42,783 nucleotides of DNA from a virus (lineage: Duplodnaviria; Caudoviricetes): positions 1 through 42,783 of the IMG/VR virus record IMGVR_UViG_3300005077_000038; one strand, given 5' to 3'. Within the stretch, counting starts at the first letter, position 1; every line of letters starts with the position of its first letter. Made by a program: the position numbers and the translations under genes. Shown here one piece after another: positions 24,128 to 42,233 of the stretch. The notes below the pieces were generated by a model, which saw only the letters and a list, made by a program, of their open reading frames with translations, had not been told where the DNA came from and searched no databases.

Positions 24128-26047
24128 TTATATAATTGGTATTGAAACACATCGGCAATTATGTATAATAATTCCATTAGAACAATACCAATTATTAATC
24201 GTTTCAAGGTTATAAACATGCCCAGAAAAATTCTCCGTACTCACTTGGATCACGCGATCGAGCTTCTTGACTCCGGGATGTCTCTTAATAAAGCTTCCCA
24301 GATTGTCGGATTTACAGCTGATAATCTTTCTAAACATCTCAGATCCATTGGCACAAATACCGATAGACGGAAAGGAAGACGACCGCATAATTTCCTTACT
24401 TTTGATCCTTATCCTATTATATCTGCTTATGTCTCTGGAGAAAGCGAGTTGTCTATTTCCAAAAGAACAGGCATTGAAAGAATTGTTATCCGCCGTCGGC
24501 TGCTCGATGCTGGTGTTAAAATAAGAAGCGGGTCTGAGGCCAACATCATTCGTTTTAAAAACTCCACAAAAGAAGAGCTTCAAAAAATAACTGAGGCTGC
24601 CAGAGCATCTCATAAAAGGAAAAATTTCCATCCGGAATATAGCAAAGAATATATTAAAACATTTCTTACTAAATGCTCTCAATCTAGATGTAAAAGAATT
24701 GGGAGAGGCGAAAAAGCAGTCCTTGAAGCGATGAAAAAATATAAACTCCCCTGCGATTCTCAGACTCCTTGCGGTATTTATAATATTGACTTGACCGTCA
24801 ACGGAACCATCGCCGTGGAAATCTTCTCGTGTGGAATGAGCGGTCAACATCGTAAAATTATGGCGGAGAGAATTAAATATCTTTCCGATCATGGGTTTAC
24901 TGTCATCTATTTCATTTCCAAAAGGATTAATCAGATCATCTTCCAACTTGATGATATAGTCTCCATCATCAAGCGAACCAATAGCCTTCCACCCTGTAAG
25001 CGTAAACACTTGATGATTAGGTGTAGCTCTGAGCGTTTTACCAGAATCCGTAATGATAGTGGTCAATTCTCCTGCATACCAACGACGGAACGCTTTTTTT
25101 ATTCCATAGGCGAAATCAATATTTGAATCTTCTGGTAAACAATTAAAATCCTCCCCTGGGTGCGCTCGCCTTCCAGTTTCCTCATCGACGATCGGCGGGT
25201 TGTCCCACGAGAAAATCCTCCCATTTAATTTCCGGTGCCGGTCCCTGACCCTTGAATCCTGTGATGAACTCCATCGGTATTTTTGAATTCCTGCACTTTT
25301 ATATCGTTCCTCACGATATTTACTGACCATCAAAGATGTTTCCTGCCTTGCCAGAAATTCAGCTTTTTTTCGGGTTACGTCGTATTCCGACATCAAAACT
25401 TTTTGGAGTTTATCAGCCCGCATACCGGAATAAACGTTTTTCTGGACTTTTTCCCGCAACCGCTCAACAGCCTTTTCAGTCCAGTCCTTAATGCTCAAGT
25501 TCATGTTTGTGTTATAAGACTCGATCAGGTTTTCTTTTATTCCTTTGGTGATCGTGGCTTTTATTCCAATCTCTCCCGGAACGGCTTTGATAAACTGATC
25601 GTCAACGTCCGCGGCGATTTTGTCCAGTTCTTTAGAGAGATCCATTTGATATGTTAGAGACTGGGTGTTTTTTTCTGTCTGGTCTAGAATATCAAACACG
25701 CCTTTCTTGACAGACTCTGCCTTGATCTCGCCCTGGGCGACCGAAGCCATAATATCCTGAGGAATCTTTCCTGGCGTGAGTTTATACCCCTTCACAACCT
25801 TGTTGTATTTACCGCCAATCTTAACAATTTCAGACGATATTTTTGCGCTGAACTTCCCGACAAAATAGCCATCAACGTATCTGACCTGGCCTTCGGACAG
25901 TGCTTCATTTAGTGCCGTTGTCTTGGCGTTCTTTATCTCAACGCTCAAGAAATCAAACAGGTCTTTGAATATCAGAGTATAAAAATAATATTCAAGACGT
26001 TCTCGGATGGCCTTTACATATTCGTCTTTGAATCGGATCGGTTTCAT
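24128..26047 (-). CDS. head morphogenesis protein (Mu gpF/SPP1 gp7 family) containing an intein; 311 aa after splicing
   Basis: LARQET, YRWSSSQDSRVRDRHRKLNGRIFSW, HPGEDFN|CRC rejoined by removing aa 303-630. Confidence 0.9.
   Translation of the reverse strand: MKPIRFKDEYVKAIRERLEYYFYTLIFKDLFDFLSVEIKNAKTTALNEALSEGQVRYVDGYFVGKFSAKISSEIVKIGGKYNKVVKGYKLTPGKIPQDIMASVAQGEIKAESVKKGVFDILDQTEKNTQSLTYQMDLSKELDKIAADVDDQFIKAVPGEIGIKATITKGIKENLIESYNTNMNLSIKDWTEKAVERLREKVQKNVYSGMRADKLQKVLMSEYDVTRKKAEFLARQETSLMVSKYREERYKSAGIQKYRWSSSQDSRVRDRHRKLNGRIFSWDNPPIVDEETGRRAHPGEDFNCLPEDSNIDFAYGIKKAFRRWYAGELTTIITDSGKTLRATPNHQVFTLTGWKAIGSLDDGDYIIKLEDDLINPFGNEIDDSKPMIGKIFNSLRHNFTMLTAHSTREDFHGDGSVDGQVNIINTARSLRIAGEFIFFHRFKDCFFASPNSFTSRLRAFSKKCFNIFFAIFRMEIFPFMRCSGSLSYFLKLFFCGVFKTNDVGLRPASYFNTSIEQPTADNNSFNACSFGNRQLAFSRDISRYNRIRIKSKEIMRSSSFPSIGICANGSEMFRKIISCKSDNLGSFIKRHPGVKKLDRVIQVSTENFSGHVYNLETINNWYCSNGIIIHNCRCVSIPII
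24142..24169 (+). promoter_or_regulatory. candidate sigma70 promoter for the antisense endonuclease
   Basis: TTGAAA(24142-47)-N16-TATAAT(24164-69), about 50 nt before ATG 24218. Confidence 0.55.
24158..25141 (-). mobile_element. intein in gpF (328 aa)
   Basis: C1 CLPEDS; block B LRATPNHQVFT; block F FSGHVYNLET; block G IIHN followed by extein Cys. Confidence 0.93.
24218..25126 (+). CDS. HTH + Vsr/DUF559-like putative homing endonuclease, antisense within the gpF intein
   Basis: HTH-like segments (LDSGMSLNKASQIVG; AYVSGESELSISKRTGIERIVIRRRL) and GEKAV...Q..CGIYNIDL....IAVEI...YLSDHGFTVIY; AAGGT RBS at 24206. Confidence 0.78.
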   Translation: MPRKILRTHLDHAIELLDSGMSLNKASQIVGFTADNLSKHLRSIGTNTDRRKGRRPHNFLTFDPYPIISAYVSGESELSISKRTGIERIVIRRRLLDAGVKIRSGSEANIIRFKNSTKEELQKITEAARASHKRKNFHPEYSKEYIKTFLTKCSQSRCKRIGRGEKAVLEAMKKYKLPCDSQTPCGIYNIDLTVNGTIAVEIFSCGMSGQHRKIMAERIKYLSDHGFTVIYFISKRINQIIFQLDDIVSIIKRTNSLPPCKRKHLMIRCSSERFTRIRNDSGQFSCIPTTERFFYSIGEINI

Positions 26048-27501: not shown

Positions 27502-29955
27502 TTATAAATTATCGAGGATTGATATTTTTCTCTTTGCGATGCCTTTTTCAATCCCATAAATAATGTTGTCAACAATGTCATCATGCTTATGGCTTAAATC
27601 ACGCGAAAACTCCTCGCTTTCTTTTATCAGTTTTTTATTGAAAGAATATGTTTCGTCAACAGGTAGAAAAACACATCCAGACTGAATATAAGTCAGGACG
27701 TCCTCAAGCCTTGTCAGCTTGTCTTTTTCGACTTCCATTCCAATTACTGGAACGAATCCATCTTTTTTAATCTTTTGAATCAGACCTGTCCCGCTTGCCT
27801 TGTCTTCAATAAAAACAGACGAAACCGCGCGTCCTTTAATTCCCAGATGCCATTTATTCCAGAACTTTTTAAATTCTTTTTCAAGTTCAGGAGCCTCCCA
27901 TTTATCTCGTATTAAATCAATTAAATATAATTTTCCAACAAAAACACCCCAAAGACAGAACACGCTAAAATCATTATGTTCTTTCGTCTTCATTGCTGTA
28001 TCGCCTGTCATAAACAATTTTTCAAATACAACATCATTCAAAAAACTTATCGGGTAATATTGATACCATTCTGATTTTATAATATTTCCACCGAGTTTAA
28101 TTGGGTTTTGTTGGTATTGAGAATTAAAGACATATTGGTCTTCCATGATTTCTTTCAACCGTTGCTCTGTGTATTGAGACGGAAGGGTGCATTTTCCTTC
28201 TTTGTCTATCAGGGGGCGTGTGATAACTTTAAAATCATAAATTTCTTTTAATATTCCAGACAAATCTTCAAGATGAAGACGCTGTTGAATGTTAATTATC
28301 GGGATGTTTGAATCATTTACCCGGGACAGCAACGTTTCCTGATAATAAATCCTAACTCTGTCTCTCATGCGCTCTGATCGGACATCAGACGGCTTGTTTG
28401 CGTCGTCGCAATTATGTACTAATATAGGCTGACTTTGTTGTATAAATAGGTTACAATTATCCCTAACAGATAAACAATAGGAGGTTTTATTATGGATTTT
28501 ATTAATGAAGAGTGGAAAGATATCGTTGGATATGAAGGGCTTTACCAGGTTTCTAATCTTGGAAGGGCCAGAAGCCTTGACAGAATTATTACCGACAGCA
28601 GAACAAAAGTTAAATACAGGCTTGTTGGAAAAATTCTCAAGCAAACAGTAAACCCCACTAAACACAACATGGAGTCTTTTGTTGGCCCACAACAAAAAGG
28701 TGTTGAGGTTCGGCACATTGACGGAAATTCTTTGAATAACAATTTTTCTAATCTTTGTTATGGCACCAAAGCCGAAAACATGAAAGACTCTATTAAAATC
28801 AAAACTTTTTCTATGGGAGAGACACATCCTTGTGCAAAGGTTTCCGAAAAAGACGCTATCAATATCGCTAAAGACAGGAGAACAATTAGCGCGATCAGCA
28901 AAGAATATGGAATTACTCCTGCTGCTGTTCTTAGCATTAAACAAGGAAAAAACTGGAAGCAATCTATTAAATATATTTATTATAAGCCTAGAACAAAGAA
29001 GAGTTTTTCCGACGAAGAGTTTAAAGAGATTTGTGACCCATCCATAAAAAGAAAATATATAATGGAAAAATATAACCTCACTTTGCCGAGGCTCAAACGA
29101 ATGAGGAAGCTGAAAAAAAACGTCATTTGGAGTTAAATTTTGAGCCTCTACATATCCCCTGCTTTTTGTATAAAACTTGTGTTCTGGCGTGCATTCTATA
29201 ACGTCTCCATTCGACAATGTTAACTCTACCATCTCTGAGTTTTCGTTTTTAATGTATCGATCTATTGGTTTTAATTCTATAGTGTGTTTTTTGTGGTTAA
29301 ACGAATAAATTAAAACATCCATTTTTTTTTCTACAATGTCACCAATCCTAACAAAACCAATGTTTGTTTTAACTAGCGTTTCGTAACCAAAACAAAAAAT
29401 ACACCCGGAGAATTCTTTTGATCCGCGAATCCCGGCCCCGAACCCTGTTATAGCAGACCCAATACTTGAAAACAAAATAACCCCGCCCTCTGATGTGATG
29501 ATCTTTCTTGCAGAGAACTTATCTTTCCCTGTTGTTTCAAACAAATATTCTTTCCAAAAATCGTTTATTGGATCTTCATAGGATTCTTGTCGCGAGTAAG
29601 AATTTTTATACATCGTAGTATAAATTGGGTGCGACAATATTGATTCAAGGATCTTTGAAATCTGGGACAGAAGATCTTGAGAATATGAAGTGTAAATAAA
29701 ATTGCATCGTTTATTCTTAGCCAAATGAAACGCCATAAAATAAATGGCCAGCGTTGTTTTTGAACTTCGTGGAGGTAGATTTAAAATGAGTCGCAGAATT
29801 TCAATGTTGGTAACCTTATCAAACGCATCAAACAGCCCTTTATGCAATTCTTCTTCAATGAACGGTCGGTTCTCAACGGCCTTGAACATATATTTAAACC
29901 AAACCCGAAACCCTCGCTCTATTAGTCTTTGTCCAAGATATTCAGGGTCAATCAT
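27502..29955 (-). CDS. terL: terminase large subunit containing an intein; 489 aa after splicing
   Basis: Walker A LPPRSSKT; Walker B GCIF|CDDANKP split by the intein; IQQRLHLEDL; nuclease DTA, IEDKASG, HDDIVD. Confidence 0.95.
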   Translation of the reverse strand: MIDPEYLGQRLIERGFRVWFKYMFKAVENRPFIEEELHKGLFDAFDKVTNIEILRLILNLPPRSSKTTLAIYFMAFHLAKNKRCNFIYTSYSQDLLSQISKILESILSHPIYTTMYKNSYSRQESYEDPINDFWKEYLFETTGKDKFSARKIITSEGGVILFSSIGSAITGFGAGIRGSKEFSGCIFCFGYETLVKTNIGFVRIGDIVEKKMDVLIYSFNHKKHTIELKPIDRYIKNENSEMVELTLSNGDVIECTPEHKFYTKSRGYVEAQNLTPNDVFFQLPHSFEPRQSEVIFFHYIFSFYGWVTNLFKLFVGKTLLCSRLIINIFNRLLPVFSLFNAKNSSRSNSIFFADRANCSPVFSDIDSVFFGNLCTRMCLSHRKSFDFNRVFHVFGFGAITKIRKIVIQRISVNVPNLNTFLLWANKRLHVVFSGVYCLLENFSNKPVFNFCSAVGNNSVKASGPSKIRNLVKPFISNDIFPLFINKIHNKTSYCLSVRDNCNLFIQQSQPILVHNCDDANKPSDVRSERMRDRVRIYYQETLLSRVNDSNIPIINIQQRLHLEDLSGILKEIYDFKVITRPLIDKEGKCTLPSQYTEQRLKEIMEDQYVFNSQYQQNPIKLGGNIIKSEWYQYYPISFLNDVVFEKLFMTGDTAMKTKEHNDFSVFCLWGVFVGKLYLIDLIRDKWEAPELEKEFKKFWNKWHLGIKGRAVSSVFIEDKASGTGLIQKIKKDGFVPVIGMEVEKDKLTRLEDVLTYIQSGCVFLPVDETYSFNKKLIKESEEFSRDLSHKHDDIVDNIIYGIEKGIAKRKISILDNL
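28429..28457 (+). promoter_or_regulatory. candidate promoter for the antisense HNH gene
   Basis: CTGACT-N17-TACAAT, upstream of the AGGAGGT RBS at 28479-28485. Confidence 0.35.
28492..29136 (+). CDS. NUMOD4-HNH homing endonuclease, antisense within the TerL intein
   Basis: NUMOD4 EEWKDIVGYEGLYQVSNLGRARS; HNH VRHIDGNSLNNNFSNLCYGTKAEN; GETHPCAKV + HTH; strong RBS AGGAGGT. Confidence 0.9.
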   Translation: MDFINEEWKDIVGYEGLYQVSNLGRARSLDRIITDSRTKVKYRLVGKILKQTVNPTKHNMESFVGPQQKGVEVRHIDGNSLNNNFSNLCYGTKAENMKDSIKIKTFSMGETHPCAKVSEKDAINIAKDRRTISAISKEYGITPAAVLSIKQGKNWKQSIKYIYYKPRTKKSFSDEEFKEICDPSIKRKYIMEKYNLTLPRLKRMRKLKKNVIWS

Positions 29956-38574: not shown

Positions 38575-38833
38575 TGTTTACACGACAAAAACGAACCTCC
38601 ACGTTTCAGATTCATGTTTCGCAATCCTCATCAAAGACGGAATTGAAATTTACATCGAATTCGAAGATGAAAAAGACGTCTGGATGCGCGGAGTAAAGAG
38701 CGTATGCCCTAAGTGTGATCGACATGTATATGATGGAACGATCGAAGAGGGCTGGGAATTTTGTCCGGATTGCGAAGTCGCTCCGGTTTATAAAAAGGAA
38801 ATCAACGAGGAATATTTAAAATGGAAATCATAA
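38507..38833 (+). CDS. hypothetical protein with C-terminal zinc ribbon
   Basis: GAAAGGA RBS; CPKC...CPDC. Confidence 0.6.
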   Translation: MKEKIFHLIKKMESDGWDLIVVDVYTTKTNLHVSDSCFAILIKDGIEIYIEFEDEKDVWMRGVKSVCPKCDRHVYDGTIEEGWEFCPDCEVAPVYKKEINEEYLKWKS

Positions 38834-39705
38834 CCCCAGAAAACAAACAGAAATGGCTTGAATTAAGAACGCAGGACATCACGTCAACAGAAGTATCCGC
38901 TCTATTCGGATTGAACCCATACATGACGAAATTTGAGTTGTGGCATAGAAAAAAACGCGGGGACGTGGTTGAACTTGCTGAAAACAAACGCATGTTTTGG
39001 GGAACAAAACTCCAGGACGTTATCGCCGAGGCCATCGCCGAAAAAAATGGATGGGAAATCCGAAGGATGGATGAGTATATCCGAGATCCGGATCTGAGGG
39101 CTGGGAGTAGTTTTGATTTTTCCATCGGCGATGATGGGATCCTCGAAATCAAAAACGTTGACGGACTTGTTTATAGGGATAAATGGGAAGAAAATTCCGC
39201 GCCTCTCCATATTGAAATGCAAGTCCAGCATCAAATGATGGTGTCCGGACGTGAATATGCCTATATTGGGATGCTCGTGGGTGGGAATGATGAAGTCCTC
39301 ATTAAAAGAAAAAGGGATGAGGTTGTTATCTCTGAGATTCGCAAGGCTATCAAAGAGTTTTGGAAATCCATTAATGAAAACAAACCGCCGGATCCTGACT
39401 TTAAGGCAGACGCAAAATTTATCGCAGAACTGTATGGATACGCCGAACCAAAAAAACTGTTTGACGCCAGAGGGGATGAGAAAATAACCGGAATGGCTGA
39501 AAGATACAAAGAACTCGGAGACTCAATCAAAGAGTTACAGACAGAGCGAGACGCCATCAAGTCGGAACTGTTAACAATCATAGAGGACGCTGAAAAGGTG
39601 ACCGGAGACAGGTTTACGATTTCAGCAGGGATCGTTGAGGAAACGCCGGTTAGCTATGTCCGCAGCGCGTTTCGTAATTTCAGAATAAACTGGAGGAAAA
39701 AATGA
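38821..39705 (+). CDS. YqaJ-like (lambda exonuclease family) recombination nuclease
   Basis: WLELR..DITSTEVSALFGLNPY, SFDF, ILEIKN, QVQHQM. Confidence 0.9.
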   Translation: MEIITPENKQKWLELRTQDITSTEVSALFGLNPYMTKFELWHRKKRGDVVELAENKRMFWGTKLQDVIAEAIAEKNGWEIRRMDEYIRDPDLRAGSSFDFSIGDDGILEIKNVDGLVYRDKWEENSAPLHIEMQVQHQMMVSGREYAYIGMLVGGNDEVLIKRKRDEVVISEIRKAIKEFWKSINENKPPDPDFKADAKFIAELYGYAEPKKLFDARGDEKITGMAERYKELGDSIKELQTERDAIKSELLTIIEDAEKVTGDRFTISAGIVEETPVSYVRSAFRNFRINWRKK

Positions 39706-41210: not shown

Positions 41211-42233
41211 ATGACACATATCGAAGAATTTAAACAAAACCTCATCGCCATGCGAGACAAACTTGAACCTTTACTTAAGAAAGACACTGACAAGTTTATC
41301 CAGATCGCGGCAAATTATGTCGAACAAAATCAGGGATTGCTTGAAAAAAACAGGGCGTCTCTATACAACTCAATCATCAGATCTGCCCAGCAAGGATTAT
41401 ATCTTGACGGACACGAAGCCGCCCTGGTCCCGTTTAACGGAGAGGTCAAGTTTATGTCTATGTATAAGGGCCTATTAAAACAAGTCAGAAATAGTGGAGA
41501 ATTGGCAAGCATAAACTGCGGGGTGGTTTATGAAAACGATACGTTTGAGTTTTTTGTTGACGAGATCGGTGAACATATCAAGCACGTTCCGAACTACAAA
41601 GAAAAGCGAGGAAAGCATTCGGCAACATACGCCATCGCAAGAACAAAAGACAGCAACGCCCCGTACATCGAAATCATGCGTGAGGAAGAAATTCAGGATT
41701 GTAAAAAGGCCAGTCGAGCCAGAAGCAATAGCCCATGGGACGGCCCGTTCTCAGATGAAATGCGAAAGAAAACAGTTTTACGAAGAATTTCAAAACGTCT
41801 CCCTATGTCAACCGATCTTAATGCTGCATTACATGCCGATGATGACCTTTTTATCCCCGAAGATGACCCGAAGGATGATCCGAAGCCAGAAACGTCTGGC
41901 AAGCTGAGGGACGCTGTATCAAATAAACAAAATGAACCTGAACCAGCTAAGAAACCCTTGGCCGTGCAGGGCGTAATCGAAGAATTGAAAATTATCCCGG
42001 TAACCGTAGACGGAAATCCATCAAGCCGTTTCGCATGCCGGATTGGAAATGTTTGGTTCGGGACGTTTGATCAGAATTTTTATGAACAGATGGGATCGTA
42101 TGCTGACAAAAAATCATCAATCTGGATGGTGTTTGAAAAAAGAACAAACAAATCCGGGAAGGAATACAATGAGGCGCTTGAGATAAACGAAATTGAATCG
42201 ACGACAGTTGACGAAACAGAGGTTCCGATATGA
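41211..42233 (+). CDS. recT: RecT-family ssDNA annealing protein
   Basis: AQQGL, AALVPF, YKGLLKQVRNSG, SPW....EMRKKTVLRRISKRLPMS. Confidence 0.9.
   Translation: MTHIEEFKQNLIAMRDKLEPLLKKDTDKFIQIAANYVEQNQGLLEKNRASLYNSIIRSAQQGLYLDGHEAALVPFNGEVKFMSMYKGLLKQVRNSGELASINCGVVYENDTFEFFVDEIGEHIKHVPNYKEKRGKHSATYAIARTKDSNAPYIEIMREEEIQDCKKASRARSNSPWDGPFSDEMRKKTVLRRISKRLPMSTDLNAALHADDDLFIPEDDPKDDPKPETSGKLRDAVSNKQNEPEPAKKPLAVQGVIEELKIIPVTVDGNPSSRFACRIGNVWFGTFDQNFYEQMGSYADKKSSIWMVFEKRTNKSGKEYNEALEINEIESTTVDETEVPI

What the first reader, a model, noticed from the sequence alone, without database searches (positions are those of the whole stretch)
28411..29394. TerL Walker-B intein with antisense NUMOD4-HNH gene whose RBS is written in block F
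The intein splits GCIF|CDDANKP, so packaging should depend on splicing. The plus-strand ORF 28492-29136 occupies the slot between the N-terminal splicing region (its stop falls in AQNLTPND) and block F. Its SD AGGAGGT is the reverse complement of intein codons ACC TCC T (K-T-S-Y-C-L), and a candidate CTGACT-N17-TACAAT promoter lies within blocks F-G. About 215 codons must stay stop-free on both strands. Inference: a free-standing HNH gene inserted in reverse into a mini-intein.
Basis: partly seen in the sequence, partly recalled or inferred. Interest (0 to 1): 0.88.

Follow-up and report, generated by a model that had tools for sequence, protein, structure and literature searches.

The report
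Terminase intein hides antisense HNH gene
A phage DNA-packaging gene carries a predicted self-splicing insert (intein) whose opposite strand encodes a nuclease gene of the homing type, with its start codon and likely promoter and ribosome site spelled by the splicing domain's own codons; this is an HNH version of a published layout, it is widespread, and this copy has lost part of its nuclease and is likely crippled.

Summary
Observation confirmed. TerL (27502-29955, minus) holds a 328-aa class-1 intein (28411-29394) just before the Walker B aspartates. The opposite strand encodes a 214-aa NUMOD4-HNH-HTH protein (28492-29136) related to I-HmuI, codon-for-codon in register.

It is a family: 13 DNA-checked members, including E. 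coli phage BUCT618, at four TerL sites within about 15 codons, and about 80 further protein clusters. Selection acts on the HNH frame (dN/dS 0.17-0.43), not on the intein insert (0.76-2.12). The ATG is always a block-F His codon. A same-position sigma-70-like promoter is kept beyond synonymous chance across the family, though not significantly in this copy alone. Empty Walker-B alleles almost never have Cys at +1, so homing would have to bring that codon.

The short inteins found are deletion products, not ancestors.

Antisense LAGLIDADG and VSR-like intein nucleases are published; my searches found no antisense HNH. This scan noted the same family on other DNA before. Verdict: new variant of a known kind.

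The parts
27502..29955 (-). Terminase large subunit gene (817 aa precursor, 489 aa after predicted splicing)
   Evidence: Terminase_6C; TIGR01630; uninterrupted homologues of 484-501 aa
28411..29394 (-). Class-1 intein, 328 aa (Cys1, block B T69-x-x-H72, His327-Asn328)
   Evidence: model and Foldseek hits to inteins
29107..29394 (-). N-terminal Hint region (intein aa 1-96)
   Evidence: pLDDT mostly 85-94
28528..29106 (-). Intein insert (aa 97-289): the sense-strand shadow of the HNH gene, low-confidence model, near-neutral in this frame
   Evidence: pLDDT under 50; dN/dS 0.76-2.12 in the family
28411..28527 (-). C-terminal Hint region, blocks F and G (aa 290-328)
28408..28410 (-). +1 Cys codon (TGC) of the C-extein, first residue before the Walker B Asp-Asp; likely brought in with the intein
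   Evidence: 11 of 11 full alleles TGC, 0 of 69 empty loci Cys; 1 of 60 empty proteins Cys
28492..29136 (+). Antisense, in-register NUMOD4-HNH-HTH gene, 214 aa, I-HmuI-like
28492..28494 (+). ATG start = reverse complement of the block-F His301 codon
   Evidence: same in 13 of 13 DNA-checked members
29134..29136 (+). TAA stop = reverse complement of the Leu87 codon at the end of the N-terminal Hint region
28479..28485 (+). Shine-Dalgarno AGGAGGT, from block-F Thr-Ser-Tyr codons
   Evidence: p 0.013 against synonymous recoding
28429..28457 (+). Candidate sigma-70 promoter CTGACT-17-TACAAT, from the Ser-Gln and Asn-x-Asn codons of blocks F-G
   Evidence: family-level support; p 0.39 in this copy alone
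28666..28671 (+). Approximate junction (Asn59/Met60) of an in-frame loss of about 18-23 codons spanning the end of NUMOD4 and the start of the HNH profile
28714..28779 (+). HNH catalytic core kept: His75, Asn87, Asn96
   Evidence: invariant columns; alignment to I-HmuI
28846..29109 (+). Two predicted helix-turn-helix modules (aa 119-206); the second marks the intein-borne clade

Best explanation
This is a terminase intein that likely splices and whose opposite strand encodes an I-HmuI-type nuclease, predicted to be its homing enzyme, and this copy's nuclease has an internal deletion that likely disables it. Shown: the two frames are back-to-back codon for codon, so the TerL frame stays open if the HNH gene merely avoids TTA, CTA and TCA, which costs no amino-acid change; selection acts on the HNH frame; the start codon is a block-F His codon in all members checked. 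Inferred mechanism: the late TerL precursor splices (Cys1, TxxH, His-Asn, +1 Cys) and rejoins Walker B, so packaging depends on splicing; a sigma-70-type promoter and SD written in blocks F-G drive a separate antisense message; the intact nuclease nicks an intein-free terL allele near Walker B in mixed infection; repair copies the intein together with the +1 Cys codon. This copy keeps the catalytic residues but lacks the strands and helix start that precede them, so it is likely an early step of decay towards a mini-intein.
For: Domains and folds: (I-HmuI E 8e-22 for the family profile). Family: BUCT618; 13 of 13 DNA-checked full elements have an open, in-register antisense ORF of 214-250 aa starting at a His CAT codon. 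Control: of 80 HNH loci, 17 lie antisense in an intein; only 1 of the other 63 has an open covering frame. Selection: dN/dS 0.17-0.43 in the HNH frame (8 of 10 pairs computable) against 0.76-2.12 for the same codons in the intein frame. Signals: His 3-9 residues before the block-F aromatic in 76 of 81 family intein ends against 12 of 71 other intein ends; [S/C/G]-Gln in 22 of 81 against 1 of 71; fixed-position promoter score 98 against a synonymous mean of 85 (maximum 94 in 1500) over 12 lineages. Mobility: near-identical exteins carry different inteins at different sites or none; four insertion sites. Deletion: 14 residues against 30-35 in 41 of 41 aligned relatives; Pfam NUMOD4 matched 1-39 of 49 and HNH_3 9-45 of 46, while 8 relatives reach 44-49 and start at 2-5; one clean gap against the 10 closest proteins aligned.
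Against: No splicing, transcript or cleavage was measured. The promoter is not significant in this copy alone (p 0.39); the SD is weak or absent in several relatives (for example L163, L170, L155, L156), and the BUCT618 clade lacks the promoter at the fixed position. Members are related, so pooled counts overstate independence. About 80 protein clusters are assigned by a profile of the sense-strand shadow, without DNA. The deleted protein still models well (mean pLDDT 86) and keeps ATG, SD, stop and catalytic residues. A pairwise phmmer alignment to I-HmuI can be drawn without a large gap. No close relative of this copy (best HNH identity about 41%) was found to date the deletion.
Confidence: 0.75

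Rival explanations
1. Same element, but the shortened nuclease of this copy is still active, using the long NUMOD4 hairpin and two HTH modules for DNA binding, perhaps with relaxed specificity.
For: Catalytic His/Asn residues, ATG, SD and stop intact; deletion is in frame; model mean pLDDT 86; phmmer aligns it to I-HmuI without a long gap.
Against: An in-frame deletion is forced by the essential TerL frame, so it says nothing on HNH function. The segment is present in 41 of 41 aligned relatives, two of its columns at 90% or more, and in I-HmuI, where a small beta-sheet beside the core reads the major groove (PMC3384342, passages; that the lost segment is this sheet is my inference from the alignment).
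Confidence: 0.13
2. The deletion is an assembly artefact and the real phage has an intact nuclease.
For: Single metagenomic contig; the protein cluster has one member.
Against: The gap keeps both frames open, and in-frame deletions of the insert occur in the family (P0034-P0037, L141).
Confidence: 0.06
3. The antisense gene is kept for a phage-level benefit (competition against co-infecting phages, or antisense control of terL) rather than for homing of the intein.
For: Purifying selection does not name the function; a plus-strand transcript would be antisense to terL and no plus-strand terminator was found after the gene.
Against: Patchy presence among near-identical exteins, discordant intein and extein trees, +1 codon replacement and repeated decay to mini-inteins fit a homing cycle.
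Confidence: 0.06
4. On origin only: the first reader's one-step insertion of a free-standing HNH gene, reversed, into a mini-intein (the model of Gosselin et al.), as against a stepwise route through a split intein or a start in a GC-rich phage.
For: Free-standing NUMOD4-HNH relatives are abundant; the preprint proposes this origin for other antisense nucleases.
Against: 0 of 28 free-standing genes tested are stop-free in the needed frame; chance is about 1% even in the GC-richer members; start, stop and signals lie inside Hint-coding DNA; the short inteins seen are derived.
Confidence: 0.4

Closest known systems
Non-canonical inteins with antisense LAGLIDADG or antisense VSR-like nucleases in actinobacteriophage terminase and minor capsid genes (bioRxiv 10.1101/2025.01.02.630785; sections 8 and 15 read whole, other passages by search)
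   Same: Contiguous intein, nuclease as a separate antisense ORF, unstructured in-frame insert, phage late-gene hosts, signs of continued spread, proposed origin from a free-standing nuclease.
   Different: Nuclease class is NUMOD4-HNH-HTH; the preprint lists HNH only in frame. Its main text has no occurrence of 'promoter' or 'start codon'. It calls these layouts rare; here about 80 clusters at 50% identity are inferred. Supplements not seen.
Cyanobacterial DnaX intein with out-of-frame LAGLIDADG (bioRxiv 10.64898/2026.09.14.751524; first quarter and passages)
   Same: Nuclease in another frame, frame-dependent dN/dS, full, mini and empty alleles coexisting, putative SD.
   Different: Described there as a +2 frame ORF, LAGLIDADG class, bacterial host gene.
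I-HmuI / I-BasI nicking HNH homing endonucleases (PDB 1U3E; PMC3017599 and PMC3384342, passages)
   Same: NUMOD4 + HNH + helical tail; only significant PDB match by profile and by fold at E under 0.001; catalytic His kept.
   Different: Those are group I intron-encoded, sense strand, 174 aa. The family here has an extra HTH, and this copy lacks the segment before the core.
ShiLan out-of-frame HNH insertion in phage methylases (PMC11855218, passages)
   Same: Hidden HNH overlapping an open host frame, homing pattern.
   Different: Same strand, frame 3, no splicing domain, no detectable RBS.

Membership tests
Class-1 intein | In-frame insertion relative to uninterrupted homologues | tested here: met
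Class-1 intein | Cys1, block B TxxH, terminal His-Asn, +1 Cys/Ser/Thr | tested here: met
Class-1 intein | Hint fold | tested here: met
   predicted model, Foldseek E 9e-8 to Npu DnaE
Class-1 intein | Protein splicing activity | not testable with these tools
   needs expression
Inteins with an antisense homing endonuclease ORF | Separate open nuclease ORF on the strand opposite a contiguous intein | tested here: met
Inteins with an antisense homing endonuclease ORF | Selection on the antisense frame and patchy, extein-discordant spread | tested here: met
   family level; not testable for this copy, which has no close relative
Published antisense LAGLIDADG or VSR-like intein types | Nuclease of LAGLIDADG or VSR-like class | tested here: not met
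   Pfam gives NUMOD4 and HNH_3 only
I-HmuI-type NUMOD4-HNH endonucleases | HNH catalytic residues and NUMOD4 N-terminus | tested here: met
I-HmuI-type NUMOD4-HNH endonucleases | Complete NUMOD4 end and His-x-Leu-Val segment before the core | tested here: not met
   absent in this copy, present in relatives
I-HmuI-type NUMOD4-HNH endonucleases | Site-specific nicking of the empty allele | not testable with these tools
   needs assay

The most novel reading that the evidence does not exclude
The antisense layout is an adaptation, not an accident: the splicing domain has been recoded at protein level (His for the start codon, Ser/Cys-Gln for the -35 box in place of the usual Asn-Gly, Thr/Pro-Ser for the SD) into a promoter cassette that expresses the nuclease early, when DNA replicates and recombines, although the host gene is late. 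The element also installs its own +1 Cys and has slid among at least four positions around Walker B. Both late-gene inteins of this phage use this design with unrelated nucleases.
Probability: 0.4. Interest if true: 0.72.

Novelty: new variant of a known kind. Interest (0 to 1): 0.5.

Why it matters
Annotation pipelines call these as plain terminases with odd inteins (BUCT618's antisense gene is unannotated), so a large homing family is hidden. It explains how two-strand coding can be cheap (avoid three codons), gives a cultured E. coli phage in which splicing, antisense expression and homing can be tested, and shows full, partly deleted (this copy), mini and empty alleles, the stages of the homing cycle. 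The layout itself is already in print for other nucleases, which caps the surprise.

Tried and rejected
Intein-only protein search at near lengths found nothing, because relatives are full-length TerL. Single-protein scan of viral contigs found no relative. The intein alignment found no confirmed locus in prokaryote genome contigs. Of 40 metagenome pattern matches, only 7 were TerL inteins; of 3 viral matches, 2. No sequencing run was listed, so neither expression nor the deletion could be checked on reads; this is no evidence either way. The VIA-align second look was not obtained. First promoter test (best site anywhere, intein's own codon usage) was not significant for any single member and was replaced by a fixed-position test with extein codon usage. 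A first count of the deletion on the shadow-profile alignment did not isolate this copy (part 2), so the HNH-frame alignments were used. Rejected: chance antisense ORF; mini-inteins as ancestors (L141 is a single 573-nt deletion of the L166 type that keeps promoter, SD and ATG); insert as an in-frame nuclease domain. Literature: searches showed no paper on antisense HNH inteins or on BUCT618; subscription papers (Gorbalenya 1998, Shen 2004, seen only as citations) and bioRxiv supplements were not seen.

Full report
Observation. The window is a 42.8-kb phage record. Its terminase gene runs 27502-29955 on the minus strand. Residues 188-515 (28411-29394) are an intein: Cys1, block B T69-x-x-H72, terminal His-Asn, followed by Cys-Asp-Asp of Walker B. 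The predicted structure is confident for residues 1-96 and 290-328 and below pLDDT 50 for 97-289; Foldseek's top hits are inteins. The plus strand carries ORF 28492-29136 with NUMOD4 and HNH_3 hits. The ORF overlaps Hint-coding DNA by about ten codons at each end.

Why two open strands are possible. The frames are back-to-back codon for codon. A stop in the TerL frame then arises only from TTA, CTA or TCA in the HNH gene. The HNH gene uses none in 12 Leu and 17 Ser codons; at local usage that has a chance of about 1e-4 to 3e-6, and 0 of 28 free-standing relatives tested avoid them. Of 80 HNH loci fetched with the family alignment, 17 lie antisense within an intein-bearing frame and only 1 of the other 63 has an open covering frame.

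The family. E. coli phage BUCT618 has the same layout, unannotated. From loci I kept 13 distinct full elements (duplicates, near-copies and truncated loci dropped); all 13 have an open in-register antisense ORF of 214-250 aa starting at a block-F His codon. They occupy four TerL positions: 1, 2 and 4 residues before the Asp-Asp, and an upstream Gly-Phe-Gly site about 15 codons earlier. A profile search of 50%-identity representatives gave 80 proteins at E 1e-30 or better; among the 150 listed, a profile of the sense-strand shadow of the nuclease marks 81 parsed intein ends besides the window's own, in terminase-like contexts. These are inferred without DNA, and a few were mis-parsed.

Selection and signals. 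Over 10 pairs, dN/dS in the HNH frame was 0.17-0.43 (8 computable, 2 saturated) and 0.76-2.12 for the same codons in the intein frame. For this copy the values (0.26, 0.33) cover long branches and do not show present function. His occurs 3-9 residues before the block-F aromatic in 76 of 81 family ends against 12 of 71 other intein ends, and [S/C/G]-Gln in 22 of 81 against 1 of 71. A TTGAC-like hexamer, 17 nt, and a TA-x-x-x-T hexamer sit at the window's position (one codon off in L178) in 9 of 13 members. Pooled over 12 lineages (one near-duplicate dropped) the score is 98 against a synonymous mean of 85, maximum 94 in 1500 draws; this copy alone gives p 0.39 for the promoter and 0.013 for the SD. 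Against: the BUCT618 clade lacks the promoter at that position, several members have weak SDs, and kinship inflates pooled counts. The 'usual' Asn-Gly of block G is recalled and seen in the control examples.

Mobility. L151 and L166 have nearly identical exteins but distant inteins at different sites, and L166's intein groups with that of L155, whose extein is distant. Full and empty alleles at the window's site occur in exteins 90-93% identical downstream. All 11 full alleles have TGC at +1; none of 69 empty loci has Cys and 3 have Ser; among 60 empty proteins 52 have Ile, 1 Cys, 1 Ser. Homing into this site would therefore have to co-convert the +1 codon (inference). Short inteins are deletion products: P0034-P0037 and L141, a single 573-nt deletion that keeps promoter, SD and ATG.

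This copy is damaged. Between the basic motif after the NUMOD4 hairpin and the Phe before the HNH core it has 14 residues; the other 41 of 41 aligned sequences have 30-35. Pfam coverage stops at NUMOD4 position 39 of 49 and starts at HNH_3 position 9, unlike 8 relatives. Against the 10 closest proteins I aligned (of 120 listed) the gap is one block after Asn59. The segment is present in I-HmuI, the only PDB match under E 0.001 by fold. A review describes a small beta-sheet beside the I-HmuI core that reads the major groove (PMC3384342, passages); equating the lost segment with part of that sheet is my inference. His75, Asn87 and Asn96 remain, and the model is still confident, so residual activity is not excluded; no reads were available to rule out mis-assembly.

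Mechanism. Shown: anatomy, frame relation, selection, conservation of the start codon, patchy spread, the deletion. Inferred: splicing restores Walker B; an antisense message from the embedded promoter makes the nuclease; it nicks empty terL alleles as I-HmuI does in its own target (PMC3017599, passages); repair, plausibly by the phage's RecT/YqaJ system, copies intein and +1 Cys. This copy likely splices but no longer homes.

Comparison with what is known. [quoted passage not shown] The DnaX preprint and the ShiLan paper describe other hidden-frame nucleases. Five searches showed no antisense HNH intein; subscription papers and preprint supplements were out of reach. Earlier notes of this scan report the same kind of element in at least 8 other genomes and embedded signals in a MuF intein; they are unchecked AI notes and I rely on my own tests. 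The window's second intein, in the MuF head gene, is of the published antisense VSR-like kind.

Verdict. Real, well supported, a new variant of a known kind. Interest 0.5.

Noticed in passing
window 24158-25141 (minus), ORF 24161-25126 (plus): Second intein, 328 aa, in the MuF/gp7 head gene (24128-26047), with an in-register antisense VSR/DUF559-like ORF. Likely start is the ATG at 24218, again a block-F His codon, with AAGGT upstream and an 11/12 promoter match at 24142-24169. 62 phage records match, including Gordonia phages; it fits the published antisense VSR-like minor-capsid type.
   Followed up: partly
P0009, P0012, P0035, P0036, P0090, C-terminal nuclease motif of TerL: A further intein near the TerL C-terminus whose in-frame insert reads like a same-strand, frameshifted HNH gene (impression from the letters; no DNA test).
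   Followed up: no
P0121; P0002-P0008: Terminases with two family inteins about 15 codons apart (both full in P0121; upstream mini plus full in P0002-P0008), in precursors of 1271-1526 aa.
   Followed up: partly
L033:699-1730: The Walker-B intein here appears frameshifted relative to the C-extein: assembly error or dead allele.
   Followed up: no
P0030, block F: Gln replaces the conserved His; a CAA codon would give a TTG start on the antisense strand. DNA not available.
   Followed up: no
P0168: A family-like intein at a different TerL position, just after the Gln-Arg-His motif.
   Followed up: no
window 38821-39705 and 41211-42233 (plus): YqaJ exonuclease and RecT annealing protein genes, a recombination system that could serve homing.
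   Followed up: no
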